From assembly GCA_023133415.1 (NCBI GenBank), contig JAGLWM010000004.1, forward strand, positions 3,574-67,573: a stretch of 64,000 nt of DNA, in the 5' to 3' direction. Below the pieces are notes generated by a model. That model did no database searches. It saw only the letters and a list, made by a program, of their open reading frames with translations, and had not been told where the DNA came from. The stretch's first letter is position 1. The number at the start of each line of letters is the position of its first letter. This DNA comes from Candidatus Pacearchaeota archaeon (GTDB lineage Archaea > Nanobdellota > Nanobdellia > Pacearchaeales > GW2011-AR1). The translations under genes were made by a program, and so were the position numbers. Positions 17,423 to 31,095 of this stretch are shown one piece after another.

Positions 17423-17530
17423 TGGCGAGAAGCGAGACTTCTCGGGGATTTGGGATTAGGTATTTGGTATTTGCGGGAAGGGGAATTGTTGCGCTCTGTG
17501 TTCGCGCTTTTGGAGACATTTTGGAAACTG
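17423..17530 (+). repeat. intergenic hairpin/GT-rich modular repeat
   Basis: gcgagaagcgagacttctcg hairpin, gatttgggattaggtatttggtatttg and ttgcgctctgtgttcgcgc modules. The last two are shared with 26590-26650. Confidence 0.65.
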
Positions 17531-17579
17531 GGAAGTAGAAAGATTTAAAATAACTATTATTGTGGTTATTATAACCTTT

Positions 17580-18098
17580 ATGGTGATTATTATGGAATTT
17601 AAGATTTTTATTGAGAAGAGCCCATTGGCTCGAAAAGTTTTTGGGAAACGGGAGATTGTGATTATTCGTAAACAGATTGCTGGGATTAATTTGACGCAGT
17701 CGGAGAAAAATAGGCTTTCCAGGGATATTCGACCGAAGTTAAGATTTATTCTGGAGGCTTCAAAATTTAGAGATGAGTTTGATTTGAAGAAGGGAAGTGA
17801 GAATAGAAAAATTGTTGAGAACGTTTTGGAGGTAATTAGGAAAGATGAGGATTTTGGGAAAATTTTGGAGATTTGGTTGTTTGGCTCGATGGTAGAGAAC
17901 AAGATGACGATTCGTTCTGATGTCGATGTTTGTGTTTTATTTGATAGGATTGGTCAAGTTGGTGCTGATAAGTTTAGATTGAGGATTTTGGGATGGCTTA
18001 GTGATAAGGCTGATGTTCAAGTGTTTAATATTTTGCCTAATAAGATTAAAAAGTCAATATTAAAAAGTCATAGGGTATTGTATAAGAGAAATGGGTGA
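17580..18098 (+). CDS. mntA: nucleotidyltransferase-domain protein (MNT-type antitoxin candidate) with N-terminal extension
   Basis: LFGSMVENKMTIRSDVDVCVLF (GS..SDxD) motif. Start uncertain (17562, 17580 or 17592). Confidence 0.7.
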   Translation: MVIIMEFKIFIEKSPLARKVFGKREIVIIRKQIAGINLTQSEKNRLSRDIRPKLRFILEASKFRDEFDLKKGSENRKIVENVLEVIRKDEDFGKILEIWLFGSMVENKMTIRSDVDVCVLFDRIGQVGADKFRLRILGWLSDKADVQVFNILPNKIKKSILKSHRVLYKRNG

Positions 18099-18492
18099 TA
18101 GAAAAGGTGATAAGATTGTTGAGATAGAAGAGTATTCGGATAAGTTGACTGAATTTTTTCCTTCTGATTTTAAAAATTATACTTCTGACGAGAAAACCAA
18201 AGCGGCATGTGAGAGATATTTTGAGAAGATTGTCGAGAGTGTTGTTGATTTGGCATTCTTTACTATTAAAGAAGAAAATTTTAGGGCGCCAGAATTTGAT
18301 AGGGAGGCATTTGAAATTTTAGCTGGGAAAAATCTAATTTCTGAGAAACTTTCTTTGAATCTTGGCAATGCGAAATCTATGCGAAATTGGTTGGCACACA
18401 GATATGGGAAAGTTGACGATAAAAAGGTGTTTGAGGCTATTCGTGATAAGTTGTTTTATGATGTTAGAGATTTTTTGGAGGCAATAAAATGA
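18091..18492 (+). CDS. hepT: HEPN/DUF86-domain protein (HepT-type toxin candidate)
   Basis: RNWLAHRYG (R-x4-H-x-Y) motif. Overlaps the MNT gene by 8 nt. Confidence 0.75.
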   Translation: MGDRKGDKIVEIEEYSDKLTEFFPSDFKNYTSDEKTKAACERYFEKIVESVVDLAFFTIKEENFRAPEFDREAFEILAGKNLISEKLSLNLGNAKSMRNWLAHRYGKVDDKKVFEAIRDKLFYDVRDFLEAIK

Positions 18493-19424
18493 AAAGGGGG
18501 CAGTTTAGTTTTGTCTGGTTGTTTGCGATTTTGGCGGGTGGGGCGATTTTGGCTTTGGCGATTTGGGGTGCGATGCAAGCTGGAGGCACATTGAGATTTC
18601 AAAGTGAGACCGAGGCTGCCAAGAGTATTTCGATTTTGACTGATCCTTTGCAGACTGGTTTTGCCGAAGGGTCTTTTGGGAAGATTTCTTTTCGGCAGAA
18701 AGCTCGATTAAATAATATTTGTTTGGATTCTGGATTTGGGAAGAATGATATTTCGGTCGCAATACGAAGCAGTGTTGGGAAAGAATGGAATTTGGCTGGA
18801 GGTGCGACATCTGTTCACAATAAATATATCTTTTCTGAAGAGGTGAATGAGGGTTTTGATTTTTTTGTTTTTTCTAAGTCTTTTAATTTTCCGTATGAGG
18901 TTAGTGATTTGATTTTTTTGAGTTCTGGAAATTATTGTTTTTTGAATTCGCCCGAAAGTGTTGAGGAGGATGTTTTGGGATTGGGAATTGATAATGTTGT
19001 TCTTGATAATTGCAGTATTGGGGATATTCGAGTTTGTTTTGGAGGCGGTGTTGATTGTGATATTTTTGTTTATGGGTCGTGTTCGGGAAATTGTGATTCA
19101 ATTTATGATGAGGGGACTGTTGCGAAGGAGGGTGGGGATTCTGATTATGTTGGGAATTTGATGTATGCTGCGATTTTTTCTGATAAGGAAGTTTATGATT
19201 GTAATGTTAGACGGTTGTTGTACCGAGCGAAAAGTATTGCAGATATTTTTGTGGAGAAGAGTGATTTGATGAATGCTCGGAATTGTAATACTAATTTGAA
19301 GGGTGATTTGATTGTTTGGAGTGCGATGCTGGAGGGTGCTGGTTCTGAGGATTTGGTTTTGTTGAAGGGGTTTGCTAAGAATTTAGGAAGGAAGGAAGAC
19401 AGGGAGTTGTGTAGGGTATGGTAA
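18489..19424 (+). CDS. pilin-like protein with class III signal peptide (MKRGQF)
   Basis: MKRGQFSFVWLFAILAGGAILALAIWG. ATGA overlap with hepT. Confidence 0.7.
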   Translation: MKRGQFSFVWLFAILAGGAILALAIWGAMQAGGTLRFQSETEAAKSISILTDPLQTGFAEGSFGKISFRQKARLNNICLDSGFGKNDISVAIRSSVGKEWNLAGGATSVHNKYIFSEEVNEGFDFFVFSKSFNFPYEVSDLIFLSSGNYCFLNSPESVEEDVLGLGIDNVVLDNCSIGDIRVCFGGGVDCDIFVYGSCSGNCDSIYDEGTVAKEGGDSDYVGNLMYAAIFSDKEVYDCNVRRLLYRAKSIADIFVEKSDLMNARNCNTNLKGDLIVWSAMLEGAGSEDLVLLKGFAKNLGRKEDRELCRVW

Positions 19425-19588
19425 AAAAGCTTTGCTTTTTTACCGGTGGTCGGGGGTCGGTGGTCGGTAGTCGGGATGACTTGGGCAACTTGCGGGGGTC
19501 GGGAGTTGGGGGTCGTGAGTCGTGGGTCGTGAGTCGTGGGTTGGGGGTCGTGAGTCGTGGGTTGGGGGTCGGGGGGAAGGGGGGGCAG
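19425..19588 (+). repeat. G-rich GGTCGG-type modular repeat (hairpin aaaaagctttgcttttt, 26-nt core, gacttgggcaacttg module, gtcgtgagtcgtgg subrepeats, G runs)
   Basis: Core ggtcgggggtcggtggtcggtagtcgg at 19448-19473 is identical to 57612-57637. Open in frame with the downstream CDS (track ORF 19418..20074). Confidence 0.85.
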
Positions 19589-20074
19589 ATGAAGATTATG
19601 CAGATGTCGTTTATGATTATTGCTGTGTTTTTCTTTTTTATTTTGGTTGGTTTGTTTTTTTTGGGAATTGCATTTAAAGATATTCGGAGTGGGGCTGAGC
19701 AGCTGCAAAGGGAGCAGGCTATTTCTTCTTTGGAGGTTATTGCTGGGATGAATGAGCTTGCTTATTATTCGGGTGAGTCGATGAGTGTTGATGAGGATAA
19801 GTTGCGGATTATGTCGGGGAGCTTGAGCGTGGATTATGGAGAATTTTGGCCGATTGCTTCGTTGGAATTTCATAAGGTTTATCCGGCTTTTGATGAAGTT
19901 GTGAAATGTCCTGCTGTGGGGTGTAATTATTACGAGATTTTTGATTCTGGGCAGAGGGATGTTGAGAAGTTTTCTTCTTATGTTTCTATTTGTAAAAGGG
20001 TTAGGGAGTTTGATAGTGTTTATAATCGGTGTGAGATTGGGAAAATTGTTGTGGGCATGAGGATTTTAGAATGA
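19589..20074 (+). CDS. membrane-anchored pilin-like protein; possibly translated from 19418 with a repeat-encoded leader ending KGGQ
   Basis: MKIMQMSFMIIAVFFFFILVGLFFLGIAF. The alternative ATG 19418 overlaps the upstream stop by 7 nt. Confidence 0.6.
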   Translation: MKIMQMSFMIIAVFFFFILVGLFFLGIAFKDIRSGAEQLQREQAISSLEVIAGMNELAYYSGESMSVDEDKLRIMSGSLSVDYGEFWPIASLEFHKVYPAFDEVVKCPAVGCNYYEIFDSGQRDVEKFSSYVSICKRVREFDSVYNRCEIGKIVVGMRILE

Positions 20075-20604
20075 AATTGAGAAATGAAATAAATAATATG
20101 AAAAATAAAATAAATAGAAAGGGGCAGCAGGAGATTGTGGGGTTTGTTTTGATTGTGGTCTTGGTGATGGTTGGGCTGATGGTTTTTTTGGTGATTTCGG
20201 TTCGGGATGTTACGGAGACGGAAGATAGTCTTGAGGTTTTGAATATGATTGGTGTTTTGATGAGGACGACTAGTGAGTGCGCGATTGTTTATGAGCCGGA
20301 TTATGATGATTTTGAGGATTTGTTTAAGAGTTGTCATAAAAATGATCGGTGTAGTAATTTGGATAGGTCTGCTTGTGATTATTTGAACGAGAGTTTTGGT
20401 GATGTTGTTGATGCTCTGATGAGAAGTGAGGCGGATGTTGAGGCTTGGGATGTTGAGTTTTTTGTTAAGGATGGAGGTGAGATGCTTGGTTTTTGGGATT
20501 CGGAATCTGGTAATTGCACGGGACGAGTTGAGGGGGCGCAGAGGAGTATAGTTTCTGGAGGAGAGAGTTTGGTTGTTAGAATGAGGGTCTGTCGTGGGAG
20601 TTAG
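20071..20604 (+). CDS. pilin-like protein with class III signal peptide (NRKGQQ)
   Basis: ..KINRKGQQEIVGFVLIVVLVMVGLMVFLVI. ATGA overlap with the upstream gene. Confidence 0.7.
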   Translation: MKLRNEINNMKNKINRKGQQEIVGFVLIVVLVMVGLMVFLVISVRDVTETEDSLEVLNMIGVLMRTTSECAIVYEPDYDDFEDLFKSCHKNDRCSNLDRSACDYLNESFGDVVDALMRSEADVEAWDVEFFVKDGGEMLGFWDSESGNCTGRVEGAQRSIVSGGESLVVRMRVCRGS

Positions 20605-20658
20605 GGGTCGGTAGTTGGGGGTGGGTAGTCGGTAGTCGGTGACTTGTTCGGCTTTGCT
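20604..20658 (+). repeat. G-rich GGTCGG repeat + gacttgttcggctttgct module
   Basis: aggggtcggtagttgggggtgggtagtcggtagtcggtgacttgttcggctttgct. Confidence 0.75.
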
Positions 20659-21013
20659 ATATTTCTATTATGATTTGTAGTTTATCAATTATTAGGACTG
20701 GTTTTAGGGATTCTCGTTTGCCTGTTTTTTCTGCGTGGAATTCTATGAATCCGAATCTTTCCAGTACTTTGATATCTTCTCTAACTGACTTAAAATCTCT
20801 TCCTAGGATTTTGGCTAAGGCGTATATTGACTTGGGGTTTTTGTGTTTTAGGGCGTAGAGGATTCTGGATTTTTCGTTTGTCAGGAGATTACGAAGGAGT
20901 TTGACATCTGAGAAGTCGTGAGGTTTTTTTTCTCCGATTAGTTTTGAGACGAAGTTTTCTTTGCTTACATTCACATCGACATATCGTGTTTTGGTTCGTT
21001 TTTTATTTGCCAT
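20657..21013 (-). CDS. winged-helix transcriptional regulator
   Basis: LLTNEKSRILYALKHKNPKSIYALAKILGRDFKSVREDIKVLERFGFIEF is an ArsR/MarR-like wHTH. Confidence 0.6.
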   Translation of the reverse strand: MANKKRTKTRYVDVNVSKENFVSKLIGEKKPHDFSDVKLLRNLLTNEKSRILYALKHKNPKSIYALAKILGRDFKSVREDIKVLERFGFIEFHAEKTGKRESLKPVLIIDKLQIIIEI

Positions 21014-21160
21014 GGGGGAGGGAGCGAAGCTTATGCTTCGCGTTTTTGGTTTTTGGTTGTTGGTTTTTGGTGGGGGGGAGCGAAGCTTTGCTTCGCGTTT
21101 TTGGTGGTAATTGTTGCGCGCTGTGGCGCGCTGTGGGCAGGGGAGGTCTTGGGATTTGGA
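21014..21160 (+). repeat. hairpin + T/GGT-tract modular repeat (two gcgaagc-ttt-gcttcgc units, ttgcgcgctgtggcgcgc module)
   Basis: Same modules as at 24788, 26514, 27226 and 30801. Plus-strand orientation although it lies upstream of a minus-strand gene. Confidence 0.75.
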
Positions 21161-21373
21161 TATTTCATATGTATGGTAAGTTTACTTAGATATATAAATC
21201 TTATGTTTTATTGATATATGTTATTTTGTGCCATATATATCGGTTTTAGAAAATCTGTTAACAATACTCATCTTGAAAATTTGTTGTGTTTTTTTGTGAT
21301 AACGGAAGCTTTATAAGTAAACTATTAAAAATGGGTTATTTTTGGGAATTATCGCCGTTGGGTGGATGGCAAG

Positions 21374-21589: not shown

Positions 21590-23878
21590 ATGAAAAAAAT
21601 ATTTAGAAAAGCTGTTACAGTTTTGGGAAGCACTGCTTTGATTGGTGCTACAGTTGGTATGGCTGCTGCTGCATCCTACCCTGAGCCTTTCACAAGTAAT
21701 ACTGCTATCGTTGTTGGTGCTAATGCTGCTCCTTCCGATAACATTGCTGCTGCTTCCATTGCTTCTAACCTAGACGCTAGTGCGGTAGGCGTAGGAGTTA
21801 TAACTGTTACAGATGGCGATTCTTACAAGTTTGAGAAGACATCCACTAAGTATCACTTAGGTGATGCTATTACTACGGTTGTTTCTTCAGATTTAGACGA
21901 AGACCAGATGCCTGTTCTTTTGAACGATGGAACTTTTACTGATGATGATAATGATGAATTTGATTACACTCAGAAAATTAACTTATCTTCTGGTTTAACA
22001 TTATCTATGTTTGATGATAATGACTATAGGACAGATGATCCTAGTATTGGTTTTAAGATTAATTCAGGTGCTGATGTTTTAACATATACACTTGAATTTA
22101 GCGATGAGCCTTTATTTACTGATTTGCCTACTGCAGATATGACTATCATGGGTAAGACATACTATGTTCTTGCTTCTACTGCTACCAAGTTAACTTTGCT
22201 TGACTCTGCTGCTGACGCAATTGTTGCGGAAGGAGAGACTGCAACTATTACTGCCGGCGGAAAGACATATACTGTTAGTATTGAATTTGTAGATTCTGAT
22301 TCGGCTAAATTGAATGTTAATGGTGAAATTACTAATGACATTGCATCTACTGAAACATACAAGCTTGATGACGGATCTTATTTGGGTATGAAAGAAATTT
22401 TATATTCGGCTAAGGATACTGGAATCAGTAAGGTTGAATTTAGTATTGGTAGTGGAAAGTTGGTTTTGGAGAATGGAAATGAGATCAAGATGAATGAAGA
22501 TTCTATTGATGGAATGACATCTACTATTACTAACACAACTGATGCTACACATCTAACTAGTGTAATTATCGATTGGGCTGCTGACGATGAACTTTTCATC
22601 GCAGAAGATTCTGTTGTTACTATGCCTGGATTTGAGGCTGTTTCTTTAGTTTTCGGAGGATTAGATTATCCTGCTGAAGAGGCTATTGAAGTTGGTTACG
22701 ATGGATCCGATAGTGCTGTTTTAAACAACTTCCCATTAAAAGATTCTGTAGAAGATATTAATCTTCTATATAGCGACGGAACTAGCTTTACGCTTCTTGG
22801 AAAAGATAGTGATGAGAGATTAGTTACGCATGCTACAAATCTTACTTTCGATGGTGATACAGATAGTTACTTTGTAGCTTCTTGGACTGACGGAAGAGAT
22901 GCTGAATCTTACTTAATGAGAGCGACTAACTTTAAGGTTGATAATAATGTTAACAAGACTACTTTCCAATATAGGAAAGATGGTTCTTGGACTGACGCTA
23001 AAGTAGACCGAAAAGATACAGATACATTCTCTGTTGGAAATGTTGAATTAGATATTGGCTATATTGATAAGTTAGGAAAGTCCGTTGTTGTTCAAAACAA
23101 TAGCGCACAGACTAGCTTCAATACTCTTTACTCTAATGAGGGCATGAAGGTGTTTCTGCCTGTTGTTAGTGCTACTGAAACCGGTAATGGTTATATCAAT
23201 TCAACTGATGGTACACCATCCAGTTGGAACTTAACTATGGTTGAGGAAGACAAAGATGGCGATATTGCACAAGGTGATACTATCTATACAACTCTTGGAT
23301 TAAATAGTCAAACTCCTGCGGAGGTTACTGTTACGACTATTACAACTTCGAATGCAGATGCAACTAGCTCTGAAATCGGAGATACTGATGTATACAGAGA
23401 TTTCACATATTCTGCTCTTGCTACTGAGATCTTATTCGATCAAGGTGGAGATCAGGACTTTGTGACTTTAGTTTATCATGGTGATGAAGTTGCTGCTGAT
23501 GTGTATATCACATCCGCTGAAGCTGTTATTACAACTACAGACGCTGGTGTTATGACAGTTATGGACGATGCTGTGTCGACTGTTGCTGGAAAGAACTTGA
23601 TTGTTGTTGGTGGTTCTGCTATCAACTCTGTTGCTGCTGATTTACTAGGTGGTGCTTTCAGTGAAGGTGCATTTACATCCGCTACGGGTGTTGGCGCTGG
23701 TGAGTTTTTGATCCAATCCTTTGATAGGGCTGGAAAGACTGCTCTATTGGTTGCTGGTTACAATGCTGCTGATACTGAAAAGGCTGCTACTTACTTGTTG
23801 AATTACGATGTTGATACAACTATCGGAAATAAGTACAAGGGTACATCTGCCAGTGAAGCTAGTTTAGTTGTTGCTTAA
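21590..23878 (+). CDS. S-layer protein (Methanococcales-type N- and C-terminal signatures)
   Basis: Signal peptide MKKIFRKAVTVLGSTALIGATVGMAAAASYPEPF. Also IVVGANAAPSDNIAAASIASNL and C-terminal GKNLIVVGGSAINSVAADLLGG..LLVAGYNAADTEKAA. Codon usage is distinct from its neighbours. Confidence 0.7.
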   Translation: MKKIFRKAVTVLGSTALIGATVGMAAAASYPEPFTSNTAIVVGANAAPSDNIAAASIASNLDASAVGVGVITVTDGDSYKFEKTSTKYHLGDAITTVVSSDLDEDQMPVLLNDGTFTDDDNDEFDYTQKINLSSGLTLSMFDDNDYRTDDPSIGFKINSGADVLTYTLEFSDEPLFTDLPTADMTIMGKTYYVLASTATKLTLLDSAADAIVAEGETATITAGGKTYTVSIEFVDSDSAKLNVNGEITNDIASTETYKLDDGSYLGMKEILYSAKDTGISKVEFSIGSGKLVLENGNEIKMNEDSIDGMTSTITNTTDATHLTSVIIDWAADDELFIAEDSVVTMPGFEAVSLVFGGLDYPAEEAIEVGYDGSDSAVLNNFPLKDSVEDINLLYSDGTSFTLLGKDSDERLVTHATNLTFDGDTDSYFVASWTDGRDAESYLMRATNFKVDNNVNKTTFQYRKDGSWTDAKVDRKDTDTFSVGNVELDIGYIDKLGKSVVVQNNSAQTSFNTLYSNEGMKVFLPVVSATETGNGYINSTDGTPSSWNLTMVEEDKDGDIAQGDTIYTTLGLNSQTPAEVTVTTITTSNADATSSEIGDTDVYRDFTYSALATEILFDQGGDQDFVTLVYHGDEVAADVYITSAEAVITTTDAGVMTVMDDAVSTVAGKNLIVVGGSAINSVAADLLGGAFSEGAFTSATGVGAGEFLIQSFDRAGKTALLVAGYNAADTEKAATYLLNYDVDTTIGNKYKGTSASEASLVVA

Positions 23879-23998: not shown

Positions 23999-24787
23999 AT
24001 GACTATTAAGAAAAGCCCTAAGGTACTCGTCGCTGGTCCTACATTCGATGGGATGGAATACTGTCATGAGAAATTTATTAATAGGCTAAAAAATTTATCT
24101 TATGATAATTACGATGTTCTCTTGGTTGATAATTCGGAAAGTAATGAATTTTTTAAGAAGTTGAAGAAGGAGTCTGGGATTAAGGCTATTAGATTGCAGT
24201 TGGAAAATATTTCGAATATTAATAGAATTGTTAGAAGTCGGAATAGGATTTTGAATTATGCTATTATGAATTTTTATGATTATGTTTTAATGATGGATGT
24301 TGATGTTATTCCTCCTGTGGATGTTGTCGAGAGGCTTTTGGCTCATAAAAAAGATATTGTGAGTGGGATTTATTACAACGTTTTTATGGTTGACCGAAAA
24401 AAGAAAATTTGTCCGGTGGCATGGAAGGGTTTTAGTGATGAGGAGTTTGAGGAGATTCGGTCTCAGGTGTCTTCGGAGTTTGTGACTTCGCCTGATCATC
24501 TTAGGCGTCATTTAAGTCCTGAGGAGGCTAATGGAGGAGAGTTGCAAGAAGTCCTTATCCCTTCGTGTGGGTGCATGTTGCTTAATCGGGATGTTTTCAA
24601 GAAAATTCAGTATGGTGTGTTGGATGTACCTGATGGGTTTAGTACGACGGATGATATTTATTTTTGCAGGAAGGCTCGTGAGGCTGGGTTTAAACTGTAT
24701 TGTGATACTGGTTTACAGTGTGAGCATTTGTTGAATGGTAAGTTTCAGAGGAATGGTGATGAGTGGGTGCATCCGTTGCATCGGTAG
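23999..24787 (+). CDS. family 2 glycosyltransferase (GT-A fold)
   Basis: VLVAGPTFDGMEYC..YDVLLVDNSESNEF..MMDVDVIPP (DxD). TATA gttttttaattgg lies about 24 nt upstream of ATG 23999. Confidence 0.7.
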   Translation: MTIKKSPKVLVAGPTFDGMEYCHEKFINRLKNLSYDNYDVLLVDNSESNEFFKKLKKESGIKAIRLQLENISNINRIVRSRNRILNYAIMNFYDYVLMMDVDVIPPVDVVERLLAHKKDIVSGIYYNVFMVDRKKKICPVAWKGFSDEEFEEIRSQVSSEFVTSPDHLRRHLSPEEANGGELQEVLIPSCGCMLLNRDVFKKIQYGVLDVPDGFSTTDDIYFCRKAREAGFKLYCDTGLQCEHLLNGKFQRNGDEWVHPLHR

Positions 24788-24790
24788 GGA

Positions 24791-24830
24791 GTGAAGCTTT
24801 GCTTCGCGTTTTTGGTTTTTGGTTTTTGGT
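24791..24830 (+). terminator. hairpin + T-tract terminator-like module
   Basis: gtgaagc-ttt-gcttcgc followed by gtttttggtttttggtttttgg, directly after the GT2 stop. Confidence 0.45.
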
Positions 24831-25075
24831 TAAGGCATCAAAGATGCCCAACTTGTTCGGCTTTGTTATTTTGTGACTTGTAAAAATATTATGTTTATGG
24901 AAATTGTTTTAAAATTTGATTTTGGGAATTGGGTAATTTTTAGCCATGGATTTCACGGACGAGCACGGATTTTTTGTGGGACATGCGACTTTTATTAATA
25001 AATCTATTAGACTATTTTCGCTTAGGCATTTTAATTTGAATCCGTCAGTTATGGTCTTTTTGTTTTAGGGTAAGG

Positions 25076-25083: not shown

Positions 25084-25098
25084 CAGTGGATTGTTTTT

Positions 25099-25189
25099 TT
25101 TTAGGATGAGAAGGATAGAATCGGGGGTCGGTGCTCGGTAGTCGGAGGTCGGGAGACTTGGGCAACTAATTTTTAGGATGAGAAGGATA
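25099..25189 (+). mobile_element. 53-bp G-rich GGTCGG element flanked by a 19-bp direct duplication that contains the start codon
   Basis: ttttaggatgagaaggata at 25099-25117 and 25171-25189. Between them: gaatcgggggtcggtgctcggtagtcggaggtcgggagacttgggcaactaat. Confidence 0.7.
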
Positions 25190-25807
25190 AAGAGTGTTGT
25201 GGATAAGGAAAGCGTTCAGCGGCGGAATAGTATGATTATGGGAGTTGTGATGGTTGGTATTTTGGTTTTTGCGAGTTTGGGATATTCTTTGATGAGTGCG
25301 GATGGGGAGGATGAGAATGTTGTTAGGGAGTTGGGTTTTGATTTTGTTCGGGATGGTGGACTTTGGAAGGTTGAGATTGCTGGGGGAATTTTTGGTTTTC
25401 AGTATTTGCCTTCGGAGGTTGATGATATTGATGTTAATTTGACGAAAGAGTTGGGTGAATATTCTGGGGAAGTTTTGTATTTTGTGAATCCGAATGAGGG
25501 CGTGGGTGAGGTTTTGAACAATCTTGGACGCTATATTTTGAGGTACCAGGAATCTTGCTTGCAGCAAGATTCTGGGGAGTCGAGGGTCGGGGGTCGGGGG
25601 TCGGATGACTTGGGCAACTTGACTAGTAAGGGGAGTGAATATGTTTGTGAGGGGGATTTGCCGGTGAAAGATTGTAGTAGTAATTTGATTATTTTTGAAA
25701 GTGGGAATGAGACGAGGGTTTATGGAGATGGGGGTTGTGTTCATATTGTTGGGGATAGTATTCGGGGCGTCGATGCTTTTTTATATGAGGTTTTGAATGT
25801 AAAGTGA
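25178..25807 (+). CDS. membrane-anchored hypothetical protein carrying an in-frame G-rich repeat insertion
   Basis: N-terminal TM MIMGVVMVGILVFASLGY. Nucleotides 25575-25625 (ESRVGGRGSDDLGNLT) are a copy of the GGTCGG/gacttgggcaacttg element. Confidence 0.6.
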   Translation: MRRIKSVVDKESVQRRNSMIMGVVMVGILVFASLGYSLMSADGEDENVVRELGFDFVRDGGLWKVEIAGGIFGFQYLPSEVDDIDVNLTKELGEYSGEVLYFVNPNEGVGEVLNNLGRYILRYQESCLQQDSGESRVGGRGSDDLGNLTSKGSEYVCEGDLPVKDCSSNLIIFESGNETRVYGDGGCVHIVGDSIRGVDAFLYEVLNVK

Positions 25808-26513: not shown

Positions 26514-26655
26514 GGGGAGAGCGAGGTTTTGCTTCGCGTTGTTGGTTTTTAGTTTTTGGTTTTTGGTAGAATGTTGCGCTCTTGGTTCGTGCTTGGTATT
26601 TGGTATTTGTGGGAATAGAATTGCTACGCTCTGTGTTCGCGTTTGGGATTAGAAA
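26514..26655 (+). repeat. hairpin + T-tract + ttgcgctc..gttcg(t/c)gc + tatttggtatttg modular repeat
   Basis: Sits in the convergent intergenic spacer. Modules are shared with 17423-17530 and 27226-27375. Confidence 0.7.
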
Positions 26656-26675
26656 ATGTTGTACTGTCTGTGTTT

Positions 26676-27194
26676 TTATTTGGTTAGAGATCTGAGATAT
26701 TTTAGGTCTGAATGTATTGGGATTGATTTTATTTTGTGAATTTTCATTGTTGCGAACCAGGTTGCTAGGACGAATATTGTTGATACTAGGTGCCAGAATA
26801 TCCAGTGTACTGTGGTGAAATAGGGTGTTGTAGCGATGGGAATTAGGATTAGAATTCTTGTTATGTTTAAGACGAAGAATATTGCGACGGCTGTGAGTGT
26901 TGCGTTGAGTCTGGTTTTGGGTTTTATGTTTGAAGTTGAAAAGATGAGGAAGAGGAGGAGGTAGAATGCTGATGTGGCGACGCAAGATGGGACGATTTGA
27001 ATTGTGAGGAAACTTGTGTAGATTGTGTCTATTACTAGGATTGTGTTTGTGAAGATTTTGAGGATTATGTTTGTCGTATGAATTGTTAATGGGTTTAAGA
27101 TTTTTTGTAGAATGTAAAAGTTTCCTAAGCCTAGTATTAGAATTGATAGATATCTTATACCAAGTCCTATGAGTCTTTTGTGCTGTTTGTTCAT
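26676..27194 (-). CDS. exosortase/archaeosortase-family protein, short form
   Basis: Polytopic 172-aa protein with IVPSCVATSAF (Cys), NITRILILI (Arg) and VHWIFWH (His) in the order expected for the family. Confidence 0.55.
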   Translation of the reverse strand: MNKQHKRLIGLGIRYLSILILGLGNFYILQKILNPLTIHTTNIILKIFTNTILVIDTIYTSFLTIQIVPSCVATSAFYLLLFLIFSTSNIKPKTRLNATLTAVAIFFVLNITRILILIPIATTPYFTTVHWIFWHLVSTIFVLATWFATMKIHKIKSIPIHSDLKYLRSLTK

Positions 27195-27225
27195 ATTGTA
27201 TTGTGATTTCTGAATTTAAAAAGCT

Positions 27226-27375
27226 TGGGGGAGCGAAGCTTTGTGTTGTTGGTTTTTGGTTAGGGGGAGCGAAGCTTTGCTTCGCGTTTTTGGTTGTTGG
27301 TTGTTGGTTTTTGGTTTTTGGTTTTTGGTAGTGTGTTGCGCTCTTAGTTCGCGCGATTTGTTCGGCTTTGCTATT
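27226..27375 (+). repeat. hairpin + (tggtt)n + gttgcgctcttagttcgcgc + gatttgttcggctttgct modular repeat
   Basis: Plus-strand orientation between two minus-strand genes. Nearly identical 3' modules at 30850-30891. Confidence 0.75.
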
Positions 27376-27416
27376 TTTTATTATTATTTGATTATTGGGA
27401 CTGAATGATTTTAGAA

Positions 27417-29072
27417 TTATGCGGATGGCGTTCTTTTGGAAATTTTTACTATTAACACCAGGAAGATTAAAACCAGAAGTGCCACTATTCCGATGACTGT
27501 GTAGAATATCACATTGTTCATTTCTGAGGCAAATCCGAAGATTCCTGGTTTCTCTGTGATGTTTACGGAGATTGTTTGCTCATGCGAGGAGCCGTCTACT
27601 ATTGTGTTAATTTTGAATGATTGTGATCCTGCTTCCATAGGAGATAGTGTGATTAAGACTTCTTGAAATTCTCCTTTTTCAATCGAAGTAGTTTGCGGGT
27701 TGATGCTTACCATGCTTGCCCATGAGTCGAAATCAGAAGCCGATATTATGAAGTCATTGGTTTTTCCGTTGTTCGTTATCTTGGCTTTTACTACTAAGTC
27801 TTGACCTACTTGAGCCGAGGATTCTAAGTTTGCTGTAATTGTCGGGGTTGGAGCTTTGCATCCTAATATATTTAGTCTGATTGATGTGTCGGAAGTTTCT
27901 TCGTCGTATGACAATGGGTCTTCGTCGTCTTCGTCGTCATCCCAGTCAAAACTTACTATTACATCTAGAGTGTATTTTTCTTTGCTTAGTTCTGATGGAA
28001 TATTTATGAAGAATGTTATCACTTCTCTGTCGCCGTTATCTAGGTCGTCGATTATTATGTATTCATCAATTCCCATTTCTGAATCATAAAGATTTACTAG
28101 GATTTTTTCTTCGTCATCTTCTCCTAGATTGTAGACTGGTATTACAATTTCTAGGTTTTGTTGACCGCAGTATGTGTTGATTATGTTTTCGAATTCCGAG
28201 CCTCTTACTACTATTGATTCTTCGTAATCTACTGATTCAACTGTGAACTCAAAGTAGTAGTCTCCGCTGTCTATTTCAGATGCGCATTGGTTTGCTTCAT
28301 TACCATCTTCATAGGCCATTATGTACATATAGTATGTTCCGTCGTCTAGGTCTGAAGGTAATTCATCAATTATGAATGTTACTGTTTCTTGATCTCCGTC
28401 TTTTAATTTTCCTATGTCATCTAGCACTTCGTCGTCTATATCGAAGTCATTTGTTATATCGTTTCCGTCGTCTTCTATTTTATTGTCTAGTATCATTATC
28501 ATCACTTCTACATCTTCGATGTCGTCATCATTGTCTGTATTTTCTACTTCTACTTGGATTTCGATTTGGTCTAGGTATTGCCATTCGTCGTCTTTGCCTT
28601 CTCCGTTATTGTTTACATCGAAGTCTGTGATTTCTAGTTTGCCTTTTTCAGTATAGCCTTCTAGTTCGCAGAGGGTGTCGGATGTTGGAGTTACCTGAAA
28701 GTTAACCTGTTCTGATATGACATACAGTTCAGTTAAAGTTGAGGCATCATATACATGTGCTTTTATTGTGACAGAAGTCCCACTTGTGGGAATTGTAAGG
28801 TTGAATCCTGAAACTGTATGACTATTCCCTGCGGTATAATTATTCGCCTCGGCAAGACTTGTGATTCTTTCGGGATTTGTAGTAGTCCAGTTAACATAAA
28901 CTTCATTAGTTTCGTTAGATGTAAGATTAACTGTAAATGGAATAATGTCTCCAGCTTCACCAATTAATGTTCCTCCAATAATATCGAGTTGGAACTCTGT
29001 TGCACTTGTAATTCCAAAGCTTAATAATAAAACTACAAGAATTCCTAAGGATGCAAACATCTTTTTTGCCAT
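27417..29072 (-). CDS. acidic cell-surface protein with signal peptide and C-terminal TM + basic tail (candidate archaeosortase substrate)
   Basis: MAKKMFASLGILVVLLLSFGITSA. D/E-rich beta-rich modules and many N-x-T/S sites. C-terminus KPGIFGFASEMNNVIFYTVIGIVALLVLIFLVLIVKISKR. Confidence 0.7.
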   Translation of the reverse strand: MAKKMFASLGILVVLLLSFGITSATEFQLDIIGGTLIGEAGDIIPFTVNLTSNETNEVYVNWTTTNPERITSLAEANNYTAGNSHTVSGFNLTIPTSGTSVTIKAHVYDASTLTELYVISEQVNFQVTPTSDTLCELEGYTEKGKLEITDFDVNNNGEGKDDEWQYLDQIEIQVEVENTDNDDDIEDVEVMIMILDNKIEDDGNDITNDFDIDDEVLDDIGKLKDGDQETVTFIIDELPSDLDDGTYYMYIMAYEDGNEANQCASEIDSGDYYFEFTVESVDYEESIVVRGSEFENIINTYCGQQNLEIVIPVYNLGEDDEEKILVNLYDSEMGIDEYIIIDDLDNGDREVITFFINIPSELSKEKYTLDVIVSFDWDDDEDDEDPLSYDEETSDTSIRLNILGCKAPTPTITANLESSAQVGQDLVVKAKITNNGKTNDFIISASDFDSWASMVSINPQTTSIEKGEFQEVLITLSPMEAGSQSFKINTIVDGSSHEQTISVNITEKPGIFGFASEMNNVIFYTVIGIVALLVLIFLVLIVKISKRTPSA

Positions 29073-29140
29073 GTTGTAATTTTAGGATTACTACACTTTA
29101 TAAAGATTTCTATGATTGTTAGATAATTGGGCTTTTGTAA

Positions 29141-29786
29141 TTAAAGAGTTGCATTCCTGTTTCCCAATAAGACTTGGCCAGAATAGTTGTTCCAAAGAAT
29201 TTCTGCAATTGCTTGAGAATCTTTGTCTCCTCGAATTAATGCCTTTTTGATGCCTTTTAATATAGCTCTTTTGGAATTATCGTTTGCTTGCTTGGCGGTA
29301 TGACCTTTTATTATTCCTATGGGTAGCTGATTTGAAGTCTTAAAGAAAATTTCTGCGATTTTATCTTTTATTGGATTCGTCGCTCTTGTTGTGTCCATTA
29401 AGAACATGAATGGAATATTGTATCCTATGAAGCAACTTTTTTCGTCTTCATTATAGCAATTTCCCAGTCCTGCAGCAGCCCAGCAAGACCTTGCATAAGT
29501 TATTCTATTATTTAAGATACTGTCATTTTCTCCTTTTTTTTATTATTGTTTTATTTTGATGTCCTGTAACACGATTTTCTTCGCCATGTCCATTGAGGAT
29601 AATAAAATTATAATCATAACTTTTTATCGAGGATTCAAATTCTGTTTTATTAGCTTTTTCTTTTTTTAGTTCGTGAAAATTTATAGACCTTTTCTTGCAT
29701 TCATTGATTATAGGTTTGGAAAAAACTGCAAGATATTCTGTGACATCATCAGATTGTGGGAGAGTTATGATTAGACCTTTTTTCAT
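29141..29786 (-). pseudogene. clan CD (caspase/gingipain-like) cysteine peptidase-like gene interrupted by a frameshift at an A8 run
   Basis: ORF 29523..29786 ends ..ILNGHGEENRVTGHQNKTIIKKRRK*. The next frame continues KKGENDSILNNRITYARSCWAAAGLG.. into ORF 29141..29407. Deleting one A in the run at 29534-29541 joins them. Confidence 0.5.
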
Positions 29787-30040
29787 TATACTGTATTTAG
29801 GGCGGTTGTTAATTGACCTGTTGCTTGGGCTCTCATGAAATTAAGATGAGTTTGGATAATCCTTTTACCTATATTATCTCCTCCCATAACGTGTTCTATC
29901 ATTTGATTCTTGGTTAGGCTTCCATCTGAACCGATAGAGAGTTTTAGTGTTGATGACATACTTGCCTCAATTCTAGCAACAACTAATTTTTTCAATGTTT
30001 CATTTAGCTCTTTTTCTTTAGAAATAATATTTTTGTTCAT
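29786..30040 (-). CDS. hypothetical small protein
   Basis: 84-aa ORF overlapping both neighbours by 1-4 nt. AT-rich cassette. Confidence 0.45.
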   Translation of the reverse strand: MNKNIISKEKELNETLKKLVVARIEASMSSTLKLSIGSDGSLTKNQMIEHVMGGDNIGKRIIQTHLNFMRAQATGQLTTALNTV

Positions 30041-30222
30041 ATTATTTTTAGTTCTGAAAGAGTATTTAAAAGTTTTTCTGAGAGTTTGGTATTATTTTTA
30101 ACTTCAAAATAGGTTGAGTCCCATGTGTAAGTCTTTTCGTCTGCAATAATAATGATTTCTTTTCGCAATGAGTTTGGAATATCTGCGTAGGCACTAAGAA
30201 ATTTTTCCCTTAATTGTTCCAT
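30037..30222 (-). CDS. hypothetical small protein
   Basis: 61-aa ORF, first gene of the 3-gene cassette. Confidence 0.4.
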   Translation of the reverse strand: MEQLREKFLSAYADIPNSLRKEIIIIADEKTYTWDSTYFEVKNNTKLSEKLLNTLSELKII

Positions 30223-30345
30223 GTAATACGGATGCTATCAATCTTTAAAACTCTTCGCATATTTGTTTTTTTAGATTTTATGAAGATTTAATAATTGGGC
30301 TTTTGTTATCGTTAAGTTTAAATATTATATTCTCGTCGGAAAATT

Positions 30346-30432
30346 ATGGTAAATAAAATTTTGGAGGCAGGTTTTTTAGATTATGCAATGACATCCATTC
30401 TTGCGGATCAAAAAACTAAAGTTTTTTGCTAA
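30346..30432 (+). CDS. 28-codon leaderless small ORF/uORF ending in TAATG overlap with the next gene
   Basis: TATA gtttaaatatta at 30316-30327 lies about 25 nt upstream of ATG 30346. MVNKILEAGFLDYAMTSILADQKTKVFC*. Confidence 0.35.
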   Translation: MVNKILEAGFLDYAMTSILADQKTKVFC

Positions 30433-30800
30433 TGGTAAGGTCGAAGGAGAATCTGGTTGGGGCGTATGCGTTTTTGATTGGTGTGGTTTTGGCTGTTATA
30501 TTTGGGTTGTTCAATGAGTCATTGGAGCAAGCTGGAGGGTTATTTTATTCGGCACTTGTTTTGATTGGTTTGGTTGTTGGTTTTATGAATACTAGTGATC
30601 GTGACTCGGGGACTTTTTTGTTGGCAAGTGTTTCTTTGGTAATTGTTGCTGCACTTGGGATGGAGCCTTTGAAATATATTGCTTTGAATAATCTTGTTGT
30701 TGATTCGTTGCGGAATGTTTTGGGTAGTCTATTGTTGTTGTTTGTTCCGGCGACGATTATTGTTGCATTGAAAAGTGTTTTTGCTATGGCGAAGATTTAG
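30432..30800 (+). CDS. small integral membrane protein
   Basis: MVRSKENLVGAYAFLIGVVLAVIFGLF.. has 4 hydrophobic helices. Confidence 0.65.
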   Translation: MVRSKENLVGAYAFLIGVVLAVIFGLFNESLEQAGGLFYSALVLIGLVVGFMNTSDRDSGTFLLASVSLVIVAALGMEPLKYIALNNLVVDSLRNVLGSLLLLFVPATIIVALKSVFAMAKI

Positions 30801-30804
30801 GGGA

Positions 30805-30835
30805 GCGAAGCAAAGCTTCGCGTTGTCGGTTTTTA
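30805..30835 (+). terminator. hairpin + T-tract terminator-like module
   Basis: gcgaagc-aaa-gcttcgc, then gttgtcggttttt. The loop differs from other copies but the stem is kept. Confidence 0.45.
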
Positions 30836-30846
30836 GTAGTTGGTTT

Positions 30847-31095
30847 TTAGTAGTGTGTTGCACTCTTAGTTCGCGCGATTTGTTCGGCTTTTTGAGTTAT
30901 TGAGAATGAGGATGTTTCTAAGGAGGATGTTTCTAAAAGATGGAGGGAAGTTTTGAGAGGATCTGGTATAAATCTTATTGATGTCCATTCTCCTCTTTGG
31001 TTTTGGAGTCGTAATGGATTCTTGTTTGAGTTATAAAAATAGAGCATACTGATTCCATAATAGACCGTAGTTTTTTCAATACCACATCTTCTCAT
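30847..31095 (-). CDS. doubtful small ORF
   Basis: 82-aa ORF whose C-terminal third is encoded by repeat modules. Confidence 0.2.
   Translation of the reverse strand: MRRCGIEKTTVYYGISMLYFYNSNKNPLRLQNQRGEWTSIRFIPDPLKTSLHLLETSSLETSSFSITQKAEQIARTKSATHY

What the first reader, a model, noticed from the sequence alone, without database searches (positions are those of the whole stretch)
17423..30891. Mosaic intergenic repeats built from a shared module set, always G/T-rich on the plus strand whatever the gene orientation
The spacers at 17423-17530, 20604-20658, 21014-21160, 24788-24875, 26514-26655, 27226-27375 and 30801-30891 are different concatenations of the same short modules. One module is the gcgaagc-ttt-gcttcgc hairpin, with an aaa loop at 30.8 kb. 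The others are (t)ttttgg(t) tracts, gttgcgctct(t/g)(a/t)gttcgcgc, gatttgttcggctttgct and tatttggtatttg. After plus-strand genes the hairpin plus T-tract resembles an intrinsic terminator. The same orientation is kept at 21.0 and 27.3 kb, where the neighbouring genes are on the minus strand. Later G-rich repeats (50644-50760, 54634-54780, 57520-57657) are also G-rich on the plus strand. Orientation linked to the chromosome strand rather than to transcription is typical of elements that move via ssDNA at the replication fork, such as REP/RAYT and IS200/IS605. No transposase is present in this window.
Basis: partly seen in the sequence, partly recalled or inferred. Interest (0 to 1): 0.65.

Follow-up and report, generated by a model that had tools for sequence, protein, structure and literature searches.

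The report
Strand-locked hairpin repeats, skewed archaeal genome
The repeats are real, short insertion elements (hairpin, 7-base G/T-rich array, conserved end box) of a Pacearchaeota-type DPANN archaeon that always lie the same way on a chromosome strand which is itself extremely G/T-rich, so their composition is ordinary for this genome but their fixed orientation and precise insertion at gene ends are not.

Summary
The named modules occur at the stated coordinates far more often than chance and only on the + strand.

Two points change the reading. First, G/T-richness is not a property of the repeats. At four-fold degenerate sites, + genes have G 30%, T 46%, A 18%, C 5%. Minus-strand genes show the mirror image on their own coding strand. 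The whole + DNA strand is therefore G/T-rich at neutral sites.

Second, the repeats are insertions. The plan is a 5' stem-loop, then 7-nt G/T-rich tandem units, then an optional second hairpin, then a GAYTTG box. Sister genomes lack them at orthologous sites. Two clean filled/empty pairs show insertion right after TTAG with no target duplication. One copy sits in frame inside a conserved protein.

Every copy in about 1 Mb from relatives lies on the G-rich strand. That includes about 8 loci next to minus-strand genes.

An ssDNA/HUH (REP/RAYT-like) mechanism fits but is unproven. No transposase was seen in the sequence examined, and REP-style inverted pairs are absent.

Verdict: a REP/BIME/BOX-like element family, apparently new for DPANN archaea, probably reused as hairpin plus oligo-T terminators.

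The parts
16243..16388 (+). Array of four short hairpins (AAAAGC-TTT-GCTTTT, CAGC-TTT-GCTG, AATCAC-TTC-GTGATT, CATGC-TTC-GCATG) after a + gene. Related copy at 16752-16915.
   Evidence: D16, D20; minus-strand fold z -5.2
16752..16915 (+). Second copy of the multi-hairpin array, on the other side of the 23S_rRNA_IVP-family gene 16389-16751.
17423..17530 (+). Element made of hairpin CGAGAAG-CGAGA-CTTCTCG, (GGGATTT)n, TATTTGGTATTTG and GTTGCGCTCTGTGTTCGCGC.
   Evidence: (CD profile E 2e-6)
19420..19588 (+). Intercistronic element. An 11-bp hairpin GGTAAAAAAGC-TTT-GCTTTTTTACC contains the upstream stop codon. It is followed by (CGGTGGT)n, the box GACTTGGGCAACTTG and (CGGGGGT)n, and then by the ATG of the next gene at 19589.
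   Evidence: Orthologous sites: filled in L059, empty in L060.
20605..20658 (+). (GTCGGTA)n plus end box GACTTGTTCGGCTTTGCT, inserted between the convergent stops of 20071-20604(+) and 20657-21013(-).
   Evidence: empty in L058/L059/L060 at this junction: TTAG|A(C/T)TTCTATTATT
21014..21160 (+). Two tandem hairpin units (GCGAAGC-TTAT/TTT-GCTTCGC plus GTTTTTG arrays), then hairpin GCGCGC-TGTG-GCGCGC and GGTCTTGGGATTTG. It abuts the ATG of the minus-strand HTH gene.
   Evidence: (empty in L058, L060; filled in L059, L061)
24788..24875 (+). Hairpin unit, (GTTTTTG)3, hairpin GGCATC-AAA-GATGCC and box AACTTGTTCGGCTTTG, directly after the TAG stop at 24785-24787.
25098..25189 (+). (TCGGTGG)n plus GACTTGGGCAACT (25118-25169), flanked by a 20-nt direct repeat TTTTTAGGATGAGAAGGATA (25098-25117 and 25170-25189). 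The repeat duplicates the start of gene 25178-25807.
25550..25640 (+). In-frame copy inside gene 25178-25807: hairpin GAATCTTGCT-TGC-AGCAAGATTC, (GGGGGTC)n and GATGACTTGGGCAACTTGAC, translated as ...QQDSGESRVGGRGSDDLGNLT...
   Evidence: absent from 185-aa homologues; insert about 90% identical in L058/L059, absent in L060
26514..26655 (+). Hairpin unit with two G-T wobble changes, (GTTTTTG)n, two C-type modules and TATTTGGTATTTG. It lies between convergent genes that overlap in relatives.
27226..27375 (+). A truncated plus a complete hairpin unit, (GTTTTTG)6, GTTGCGCTCTTAGTTCGCGC and GATTTGTTCGGCTTTGCT, between two minus-strand genes.
   Evidence: 40-45 nt spacer without element in L058, L060
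30801..30894 (+). Complete element with a flipped (AAA) loop, inserted directly after the TTAG of gene 30432-30800.
   Evidence: empty sites in L058 and L060: TTAG|T...
57503..57657 (+). G-rich element ((GGTCGG)n plus GATTTGTTCGGCACTTG, preceded by CACACCCCAAAT/ATTGGGGCGAG repeats) between two minus-strand genes. It is read through by the GIY-YIG ORF 57254-57706.
   Evidence: F profile E 0.008
54634..54780 (+). G-rich inserts (GGGGCGAATTTT units; GCAGTTCTGCACACCTCAAATTG x2, shared with 57.5 kb) nested inside a copy of the second, minus-oriented repeat family.

Best explanation
The spacers hold copies of a lineage-specific family of short (50-160 nt) non-autonomous insertion elements.

Each element has:
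1. a 5' Watson-Crick stem-loop of 6-11 bp with a 3-4 nt loop;
2. a variable array of 7-nt G/T-rich units (GTTTTTG, GGTGGTC, GGGGGTC and others);
3. often a second small hairpin;
4. a 3' box (GAYTTG-TTCGGC/GGCAAC-TTTG).

Shown: they are insertions. Orthologous sites in sister genomes are empty, and one copy is in frame within a protein. They land exactly at gene boundaries, after TAG stops of + genes or against the ATG of minus genes. The two clean cases show no target duplication. Every copy in every species examined has the same polarity on the G-rich DNA strand, whatever the neighbouring gene's direction. Their G/T-richness is simply the composition that all neutral sites of that strand have.

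Inferred: the + strand is the strand exposed as single-stranded DNA during replication (the lagging-strand template). The elements are copied into it by a strand-specific, hairpin-dependent process, either of the IS200/IS605-REP/RAYT type or by template switching at the fork. The 7-mer arrays then grow locally by slippage.

Also inferred: once in place behind + genes, the hairpin plus T5 runs serve as transcription terminators or 3'-end stabilisers. Inside operons the hairpin acts as an intercistronic RNA structure.
For: - Modules are non-random and all on +.
- 7-nt periodicity holds in every array.
- Filled versus empty orthologous sites were seen in L058, L059, L060, L062 and L063.
- Insertion is precise, after TTAG and without duplication, at 20604|20605 and 30800|30801.
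- All four + genes directly followed by an element end in TAG, against 10 of 44 overall (p about 0.003).
- The in-frame insert is absent from 185-aa homologues and more conserved at DNA level than its coding flanks.
- Different r-protein junctions are occupied in different species. The same junction (S14|S8) holds unrelated copies in three species.
- nhmmer profiles against 956 kb plus 62 kb of relatives hit the + strand only. L061 has 6 hairpin units, 5 of them against the ATG of three minus-strand genes.
- The hairpin units are the top terminator-like sites in 15-32 kb.
- The strand asymmetry is chromosome-strand linked.
Against: - No transposase of any kind was found in about 80 kb of this contig or in about 100 kb of syntenic loci with Pfam tables.
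- Two copies (window 25098-25189; L058 5342-5531) are flanked by 20- and 26-nt direct duplications of the downstream gene start. IS200/IS605-type insertion does not produce these.
- The GCGAAGC hairpin subfamily was seen only within 10 kb of this contig and at syntenic places in L059 and L061. Local spread by recombination is therefore not excluded.
- Exact-pattern scans of public genome and metagenome collections found no further copies.
- Copies in the 5' region of minus genes cannot be terminators for those genes.
- On the + RNA the folds are no better than shuffled G/U-rich sequence, so an RNA-level role is not demonstrated.
- Replication direction is inferred from skew alone.
Confidence: 0.5

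Rival explanations
1. Not mobile. The units are transcription terminators or intercistronic RNA hairpins that evolved in place at each gene end. They look alike because of convergent selection, slippage, and the extreme G/T mutational equilibrium of the + strand.
For: - The units lie directly after stop codons, with T5 runs, and give the top terminator-like scores.
- Stem substitutions are G-U compatible (24791, 26521).
- A compensatory G-C to A-T change in the stem separates the window 19420 hairpin from its L059 orthologue.
- Neutral + strand composition is already 76% G+T.
Against: - 31-70 nt stretches are 91-100% identical at unrelated sites (D3, D9).
- Copies occur where no + transcript should end: against the ATG of minus genes in three species, and in frame in an ORF.
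- Sister genomes show clean presence/absence.
- Operon-internal copies have no T-tract.
Confidence: 0.15
2. Strand-specific DNA-level signals, or by-products, of an unusually asymmetric replication mode. On this view the hairpins are used on single-stranded DNA, for example as priming or ssi-like sites or as SSB-free landmarks. Alternatively, stalling and template switching at the fork generates them. They would then be strand-locked by function rather than by transposition.
For: - G:C at four-fold sites is extreme, about 6:1. The skew is monotonic over 80 kb.
- Polarity is independent of gene direction.
- On the C/A-rich strand the palindromes are the only structure (z -3 to -7).
- GCTTCGC on the + strand is the complement of d(GCGAAGC). 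It is found 13 times against 1.1 expected in the window, and 69 against 10 expected in relatives.
- d(GCGAAGC) is the 'extraordinarily stable mini-hairpin' motif. It has been reported at primase sites of ssDNA phages and near ssiA of RSF1010 (PMC13037366).
- Hairpin arms sometimes extend into pre-existing coding sequence (19420, 25550), as template switching would give.
Against: - Occurrence is irregular. Related genomes with equal skew (L010, L017, L022) have few or none in the same operon.
- The elements cluster at gene ends rather than at regular intervals.
- There is no experimental link between archaeal primase and such motifs.
- The mini-hairpin heptamer lies mostly on the strand that is not inferred to be exposed.
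Confidence: 0.15
3. attC-like recombination sites of an integron-type cassette array (a CALIN, as reported in Nanoarchaeota MAGs). Small genes, including inverted ones and a toxin-antitoxin pair, would each be bounded by a same-orientation hairpin site.
For: - Same-orientation hairpin repeats bracket small genes: HTH 20657-21013(-), 26676-27194(-), and the IVP-family gene 16389-16751.
- MNT/HepT pair lies at 17580-18492.
- In L061 two extra minus-strand genes (IVP-like, Bro-N) sit between hairpin units.
- Archaeal CALINs are known (PMC9668308).
Against: - Gene order is conserved across six species while the repeats come and go. That is the opposite of a cassette array.
- There is no tyrosine recombinase in the Pfam tables.
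- The elements consist of two local hairpins separated by 7-mers. They are not one long imperfect palindrome with R''/R' (RYYYAAC/GTTRRRY) cores (sequence).
- Copies occur inside operons and inside an ORF.
Confidence: 0.04
4. Chance resemblance among low-complexity G/T-rich spacers.
For: - Background is 61% G+T overall, and 76% at neutral sites.
- 7-mer arrays differ between loci.
Against: - Dinucleotide-preserving shuffles give 0.00-0.2 expected matches against 4-5 observed for each C-containing module.
- Profile hits reach E 1e-10 to 1e-13 in other species.
Confidence: 0.02

Closest known systems
REP / BIME elements and REPINs with RAYT (TnpA_REP) transposases of Proteobacteria
   Same: - Short extragenic palindromes with 5-13 bp stems and tiny loops.
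- Mosaic combinations with other motifs.
- Placement after coding regions, between unidirectional and convergent genes.
- G-T pairs in stems, occasional intragenic copies, and a short tag next to the stem (GTAG there, TAG/TTAG here) (PMC3733652).
   Different: - Here all copies are in direct orientation. The head-to-head or tail-to-tail pairs that make REPINs and BIMEs are absent.
- A 7-nt tandem array and a 3' box are part of the unit.
- The host is an archaeon.
- No RAYT was found in the sequence available.
IS200/IS605-family insertion and its derived miniature elements (PATEs)
   Same: - Hairpin-containing ends.
- Insertion immediately 3' of a fixed tetranucleotide without target duplication (two clean cases).
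- Polarity tied to one DNA strand, as expected for insertion into the lagging-strand template. The mechanism is established knowledge; here it is an inference.
   Different: - No Y1 transposase was seen.
- Two copies carry 20-26 nt flanking duplications.
- Internal 7-mer arrays are not a feature of that family.
- Target specificity rests on few sites, several of which are stop codons.
BOX elements of Streptococcus pneumoniae (boxA-(boxB)n-boxC)
   Same: Modular plan: a conserved 5' module, a variable number of tandem middle units, and a conserved 3' module. Intergenic, non-autonomous, structured. This comparison rests on my own knowledge and was not tested here.
   Different: BOX modules are 45-60 nt, not 7 nt. 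BOX elements occur in both orientations. They are bacterial and show no strand lock.
Rickettsia palindromic elements (RPE)
   Same: A palindromic repeat inserted in frame into protein-coding genes and kept as extra peptide. The comparison to RPE rests on my own knowledge.
   Different: RPEs are 100-150 nt and their insertions are not strand-locked. Here only one in-frame site was found.
Whole-chromosome G/C strand disparity of CPR Microgenomates (Kadnikov et al. 2020, PMC7143001)
   Same: One DNA strand has about twice or more G than C over long distances, independent of gene distribution. Unidirectional replication has been proposed.
   Different: That case is bacterial and shows no AT skew. 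Here T>A accompanies G>C, and the four-fold-site skew reaches +0.72. No repeat family was linked to the asymmetry there.

Membership tests
REP/REPIN-RAYT | Short imperfect palindrome (20-40 nt) repeated in extragenic space | tested here: met
   17-25 nt hairpins, 6-11 bp stems, 3-4 nt loops, in 12 or more spacers
REP/REPIN-RAYT | Conserved unpaired tetranucleotide tag (GTAG or variant) at one end of the stem | tested here: inconclusive
   TAG/TTAG precedes G(3-5)A plus stem in 6 of 9 GCGAAGC-type copies. In 3 of these TAG is the upstream gene's stop codon, which pre-exists in empty sites.
REP/REPIN-RAYT | Units paired in inverted orientation (REPIN doublets; alternating REPs in BIMEs) | tested here: not met
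   All units are direct, including tandem ones (21014-21110, 27226-27295, L061 3534-3735). nhmmer found no minus-strand hits apart from the palindromic core.
REP/REPIN-RAYT | Cognate single-copy RAYT (Y1 HUH) gene, usually flanked by REPs | tested here: inconclusive
   None in the Pfam tables for about 80 kb of this contig and about 100 kb of syntenic loci, and none by a weak tblastn over about 1 Mb. The rest of the genome is not available.
REP/REPIN-RAYT | High copy number spread over the whole genome | not testable with these tools
   Only 80 kb of a 120 kb contig could be read. Exact-pattern scans of public collections found no other contig.
IS200/IS605-type (ssDNA, peel-and-paste) derivatives | Insertion 3' of a specific 4-5 nt target without target-site duplication | tested here: inconclusive
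   Met at 20604|20605 and 30800|30801 (TTAG|, no duplication). Two other copies have 20- and 26-nt flanking duplications. Other sites are not alignable.
IS200/IS605-type (ssDNA, peel-and-paste) derivatives | Orientation bias relative to replication direction (top strand on the lagging-strand template) | tested here: inconclusive
   All copies are on the G/T-rich strand in all species. Replication direction is known only from skew, and no skew switch is available to test for a flip.
Classical MITE | Terminal inverted repeats and a short fixed-length target-site duplication | tested here: not met
   The 5' end (GGGGAGCGAAGC) and 3' end (TTCGGCTTTGCT) are not inverted copies of each other. No flanking repeat of 9 nt or more in 35 of 37 elements, and none at the clean empty/filled pairs.
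Integron attC / CALIN | Single imperfect palindrome with R''-L''...L'-R' cores (RYYYAAC...GTTRRRY), variable cassettes between sites, IntI recombinase | tested here: not met
   The architecture is two local hairpins with no core sites. Gene order is conserved across six species. There is no integrase in the Pfam tables. An attC covariance model was not available.
Intrinsic/archaeal oligo-T terminator | Stem-loop and/or run of 5 or more T on the non-template strand just downstream of a stop codon | tested here: met
   GCGAAGC-type units are the 5 best terminator-like sites in 15-32 kb. They lie 0-3 nt after the stops at 24787, 26513 and 30800. Function was not tested, and copies beside minus genes do not fit.
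Known RNA families (Rfam 15) | Match to a curated covariance model | tested here: not met
   Only tRNAs at gathering score over the window. Nothing relevant at E<=1 in 16-31.5 kb.

The most novel reading that the evidence does not exclude
A sub-lineage of Pacearchaeota replicates with one strand exposed as ssDNA for unusually long, either unidirectionally or in a strand-displacement-like mode. That would produce the 6:1 G:C ratio at neutral sites. The hairpin-7mer-box elements would be made on, or inserted into, that exposed strand by a hairpin-dependent enzyme. Candidates are an HUH/RAYT-like enzyme, which would be the first REP-like system in Archaea, or the replication machinery itself through fold-back and slippage. 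The elements may serve as ssDNA landmarks built around the complement of the d(GCGAAGC) mini-hairpin.
Probability: 0.15. Interest if true: 0.85.

Novelty: new variant of a known kind. Interest (0 to 1): 0.6.

Why it matters
DPANN archaea have tiny, compact genomes and are thought to carry few repeats. My paper searches found no description of REP/BIME-like elements in them, or of strand asymmetry in Pacearchaeota.

Here a family of miniature elements reshapes gene boundaries. It adds 3' hairpin/oligo-T units, lengthens the 5' leaders of minus-strand genes, splits tightly packed ribosomal-protein operons and adds peptide to a conserved protein. It also obeys a strict strand rule, in a genome with one of the strongest strand asymmetries I know of.

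If the strand rule reflects ssDNA-dependent insertion, these elements are a natural marker of replication direction in uncultured archaea. They would also point to an unknown enzyme.

In practice, the asymmetry misleads gene callers. Real minus-strand genes were missed and spurious + ORFs were called through the repeats.

Tried and rejected
- **Genome-wide census by exact pattern GAGYGAAGCWWWGCTTCGCGTT.** There were 0 hits in genome contigs. The single metagenome hit, L005, has no skew and an unrelated context, so it is a chance match.
- **Translating the repeats and searching the protein database for spurious ORFs elsewhere in the genome.** Only the window's own ORFs came back, plus one weak (GGTTTTT)-type translation, P0003.
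- **Viral-contig scans.** The hairpin pattern gave 0 hits. The degenerate box pattern gave more than 120 single hits, with no contig holding more than one listed match. I took these as chance and did not inspect them.
- **C/D-box sRNA idea.** UGAUGA at the 5' hairpin of operon copies comes from the TGA-ATG junction. The 3' CUGA is not conserved, and Rfam gives nothing.
- **Promoter idea for the GACTTGGGCAAC box.** Copies sit 20-28 nt before the ATG, upstream of an SD, with no TATA box. This organism's real promoters read TTTATAAA.
- **General target-site duplication.** Only 2 of 37 elements have one.
- **+ strand RNA structure beyond the palindromes.** z-scores run from -1.8 to +0.7.
- **G-U compatible stem changes as evidence for RNA function.** This is not discriminating, because the C>T and A>G bias of the + strand gives the same pattern.
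- **HUH transposase search.** There were no hits, but the test is weak.
- **Integron/CALIN reading.** Rejected on architecture and conserved synteny.

Full report
**Source and setting**

The window encodes PCNA, a PriS-type primase, an S-layer protein, diphthamide synthase, SepF, FtsZ, Spt5 and the archaeal ribosomal-protein operon. It matches a 119.9-kb metagenomic scaffold. The closest genomes by uS3 are MAGs labelled Pacearchaeota, Woesearchaeota or Nanoarchaeota. It is therefore a chromosomal piece of a DPANN archaeon. With flanks L001 and L006, about 80 kb of the contig could be read.

**The observation**

- The hairpin GCGAAGC-WWW-GCTTCGC has 5 matches at up to 2 mismatches, against 0.01 expected from shuffles. 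There is also a 4-nt-loop copy at 21024 and a truncated one at 27233.
- GTTGCGCTCTTAGTTCGCGC has 5 matches against 0.00 expected.
- GATTTGTTCGGCTTTGCT has 4 matches against 0.2 expected.
- A further box, GACTTGGGCAACT, occurs 3 times exactly.

All matches are on the + strand. Tandem Repeats Finder shows that the G/T tracts are arrays with a 7-nt period: GTTTTTG, CGGTGGT, CGGGGGT, GTCGGTA, GGGATTT, TTGGTAT.

The hairpin units are the five best terminator-like sites between 15 and 32 kb.

The minus-strand neighbours are genuine genes. 20657-21013 is an HVO_A0114-type HTH. The orthologue of 26676-27194 has a weak exosortase match.

**What the G/T-richness really is**

The window as a whole has G 16663 and C 8120, and T 22636 and A 16581.

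At four-fold degenerate sites, + genes have G 30%, T 46%, A 18%, C 5% (GC skew +0.72, AT skew -0.43). Minus-strand genes, read on their own coding strand, have GC skew -0.57 and AT skew +0.49.

So at sites nearly free of protein constraint, the + DNA strand is G- and T-rich whichever way the gene points. This is a chromosome-strand, mutational asymmetry. It is stronger than the whole-chromosome G/C disparity described for some CPR bacteria (PMC7143001).

The skew keeps one sign over all 80 kb.

A few genes lack it: 37176-43727, the S-layer gene, 50715-51299 and the GIY-YIG gene. The first block is probably a recent acquisition, though I did not test this.

The repeats' composition (G 37%, T 35%, A 14%, C 13.5%) is therefore unremarkable, except that they keep more C than neutral sites do. 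That extra C sits in the stems.

**Anatomy**

Comparing all copies in the window and in relatives gives one plan.

1. A perfect or near-perfect stem-loop. It often includes the upstream stop codon, as in GGTAAAAAAGC-TTT-GCTTTTTTACC at 19420 and CTGATGAAATT-AAA-AATTTCATCAG in L009.
2. A 7-nt (sometimes 8-nt) G/T-rich array whose unit differs from locus to locus.
3. Often a second small hairpin: GCGC..GCGC, GCGCGC-TGTG-GCGCGC, GGCATC-AAA-GATGCC, or GGGC-TTC-GCCC in L061.
4. A 3' box, either GAYTTGTTCGGCTTTG or GACTTGGGCAACTTG.

In L061 the complete unit is 78 nt and occurs three times in tandem.

The GACTTGGGCAAC box is conserved in at least seven species. There it sits 20-28 nt before the start codon of operon-internal genes, followed by a Shine-Dalgarno sequence.

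**They are insertions**

Six syntenic loci from other species (L058-L063) keep the same gene order, but their spacers differ.

| Window site | State in relatives |
|---|---|
| 20605 | Relatives have overlapping convergent stops |
| 26514 | Relatives have overlapping or abutting convergent genes |
| 27226 | L058 and L060 have 40-45 nt spacers with no element |
| 30801 | Empty sites read ...GATTTAG\|T... in L058 and L060; the window reads ...GATTTAG\|GGGAGCGAAGC...GGCTTT\|TTGAG |
| 21014 | Element lies between the ATG of the HTH gene and its conserved promoter block. L058 and L060 are empty; L059 and L061 are filled |

No target duplication is seen at 20605 or 30801.

In the ribosomal-protein operon, different junctions are occupied in different species. 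One junction (S14|S8) holds unrelated copies in three species, and most relatives have 0-10 nt there.

The gene 25178-25807 belongs to a conserved family that is typically 185 aa. The window's copy, like those of L058 and L059, carries hairpin, 7-mers and box in frame between LRYQE(A/S)C and C.GDLP. The insert is about 90% identical at DNA level between species whose flanking codons are about 80% identical. L060 lacks it.

Only 2 of 37 elements have long flanking direct repeats. One is 20 nt at 25098/25170 and the other 26 nt in L058. Both duplicate the SD-ATG-first codons of the downstream gene.

All four + genes that are directly followed by an element end in TAG. Overall, TAG is 10 of 44 + stops.

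**Orientation**

Profiles of the three module groups were searched on both strands against 956 kb of relatives and then three further loci. Every hit is on the + strand, which is the G-rich strand.

- window 21014-21160, 27226-27375, 57503-57657, and the nested insert at 54634-54780;
- L059 6174;
- L061 2178, 2641 and the triple unit 3534-3735. These abut the ATGs of three consecutive minus-strand genes (HTH, an IVP-family gene, a Bro-N gene).

None is inverted, so polarity follows the DNA strand and not the gene.

This is not true of every repeat. A second family (34747, 35538, 37034, 54783; also in L060) lies at the ATG of minus-strand genes, flanked by CATGG, and is C>G on the + strand.

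**Mechanism: shown and inferred**

Shown:
- insertion;
- gene-boundary placement;
- lack of duplication at clean sites;
- strand lock;
- 7-nt arrays that differ per locus;
- Watson-Crick palindromes as the only non-random structure. The C/A-rich strand folds with z -3 to -7, while the G/U-rich strand folds no better than shuffles.

Inferred:
- The G/T-rich strand is the one exposed as ssDNA in replication. This follows the classical deamination explanation of skew.
- A hairpin-dependent, strand-specific process places the elements there.

The IS200/IS605-REP/RAYT route fits the missing duplication, the TTAG context and the strand lock. However, I found no Y1 transposase in what could be read (Pfam tables; weak tblastn). 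REP-style inverted pairs are absent, and two copies carry long duplications.

Fold-back or template switching at the fork is an alternative. It would also explain why some stems use pre-existing coding sequence as their 5' arm (19420; 25550, where Ala-to-Ser goes with the stem). It would explain the one flipped loop (30805) as well.

Behind + genes, the hairpin plus T5 runs are plausible archaeal terminators. This is untested. It cannot apply to copies in the leaders of minus genes.

**A lead, not a result**

GCTTCGC is among the most over-represented heptamers on the + strand. It occurs 13 times against 1.1 expected in the window and 69 times against 10 in relatives. Many stems have a GC-TTY-GC apex.

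Its complement, d(GCGAAGC), is the 'extraordinarily stable mini-hairpin' of the DNA literature. That motif has been reported at primase sites of ssDNA phages and near RSF1010 ssiA (PMC13037366).

Whether this matters here is unknown.

**Comparison with known systems**

The closest kinds are bacterial REP/BIME elements (PMC3733652), IS200/IS605-derived miniature elements, pneumococcal BOX elements (modular with a variable middle) and Rickettsia RPEs (in-frame copies).

The family fails the REPIN/BIME test of inverted pairing. It also fails the MITE test (no TIR, no TSD) and the attC test (architecture and conserved synteny; PMC9668308). No Rfam family matches.

Searches of the held literature found no description of such elements, or of this strand asymmetry, in Pacearchaeota or DPANN.

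**Verdict**

The 'mobile, strand-locked, hairpin-dependent' part is supported by new comparative evidence, but the enzyme and the link to replication remain unproven.

I rate it a new variant of a known kind of element, in an unusual genomic setting.

Noticed in passing
window 1-64000 (also L001, L006, L058-L063): Extreme chromosome-strand asymmetry. At four-fold sites G:C is about 6:1 and T:A about 2.5:1 on the + strand, in genes of both orientations. The skew is monotonic over 80 kb. A subset of related MAGs (L009, L010, L027, L035, L037, L038) shares it and others do not.
   Followed up: yes
window 37176-43727; also 21590-23878, 50715-51299, 57254-57500: Genes with about zero skew at four-fold sites, embedded in the skewed background. 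The 37-44 kb block also holds three copies of a 213-nt repeat (39002, 42542, 43802). This probably reflects recent acquisition or, for the S-layer gene, different constraints.
   Followed up: partly
window 34747-34838, 35538-35629, 37034-37125, 54615-54633 plus 54783-54841; L060 16963-17110: A second dispersed repeat (about 83 nt, several small hairpins) sits exactly at the ATG of minus-strand genes (L11, Spt5, FtsZ and others), bracketed by CATGG. It is absent at the same junctions in L058 and L059. On the gene strand it starts with its own ATG and a 22-codon ORF.
   Followed up: partly
window 31819-32040: A 111-nt unit is present twice in the window but once in the ENA version of the same scaffold. 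The coordinate offset changes by 111 between 31779 and 32042. This is either copy-number polymorphism or assembly collapse.
   Followed up: partly
L010, L009, L008 (ribosomal-protein operons): Many junctions between ribosomal-protein genes hold 200-340 nt inserts that look like small protein-coding ORFs (70-110 aa), with starts overlapping the upstream stop. The window's operon has none.
   Followed up: no
window 790-2430(-), 20657-21013(-); L054, L001 gene tables: Public gene calls miss real minus-strand genes (primase, HTH) in the G-rich region. They call + ORFs through stop-poor G/T-rich sequence instead, and several called 'proteins' are translated repeats.
   Followed up: partly
window, 13 sites (e.g. 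16333, 16855, 21035, 31903); relatives L035, L061, L030: GCTTCGC is strongly over-represented on the + strand. Its complement d(GCGAAGC) is the known ultra-stable DNA mini-hairpin. Many stems have a GC-TTY-GC apex.
   Followed up: partly
L061 2171-3783: Relative to the window, two extra minus-strand genes lie between the HTH gene and its promoter block. They are a 23S_rRNA_IVP-like four-helix-bundle protein and a Bro-N protein. Each is bounded by + oriented hairpin units, with three tandem 78-nt units upstream of Bro-N.
   Followed up: partly
window 25562-25640 and homologues P0004-P0049 (alignment A1): The insertion point in the 25178-25807 protein family is a length-variable hot spot. Inserts range from 0 to about 50 residues, and many contain DDLGNLT, the translated end box.
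   Followed up: yes
window 7591-8356 and 9734-10235: There are 282-nt tandem coding repeats in the 1409-aa protein. Three copies of a 50-nt promoter/SD-like block (TGTGTGTTTTTGTTTTTTAACTTTTTTAGAGGAGG) lie before small + genes.
   Followed up: no
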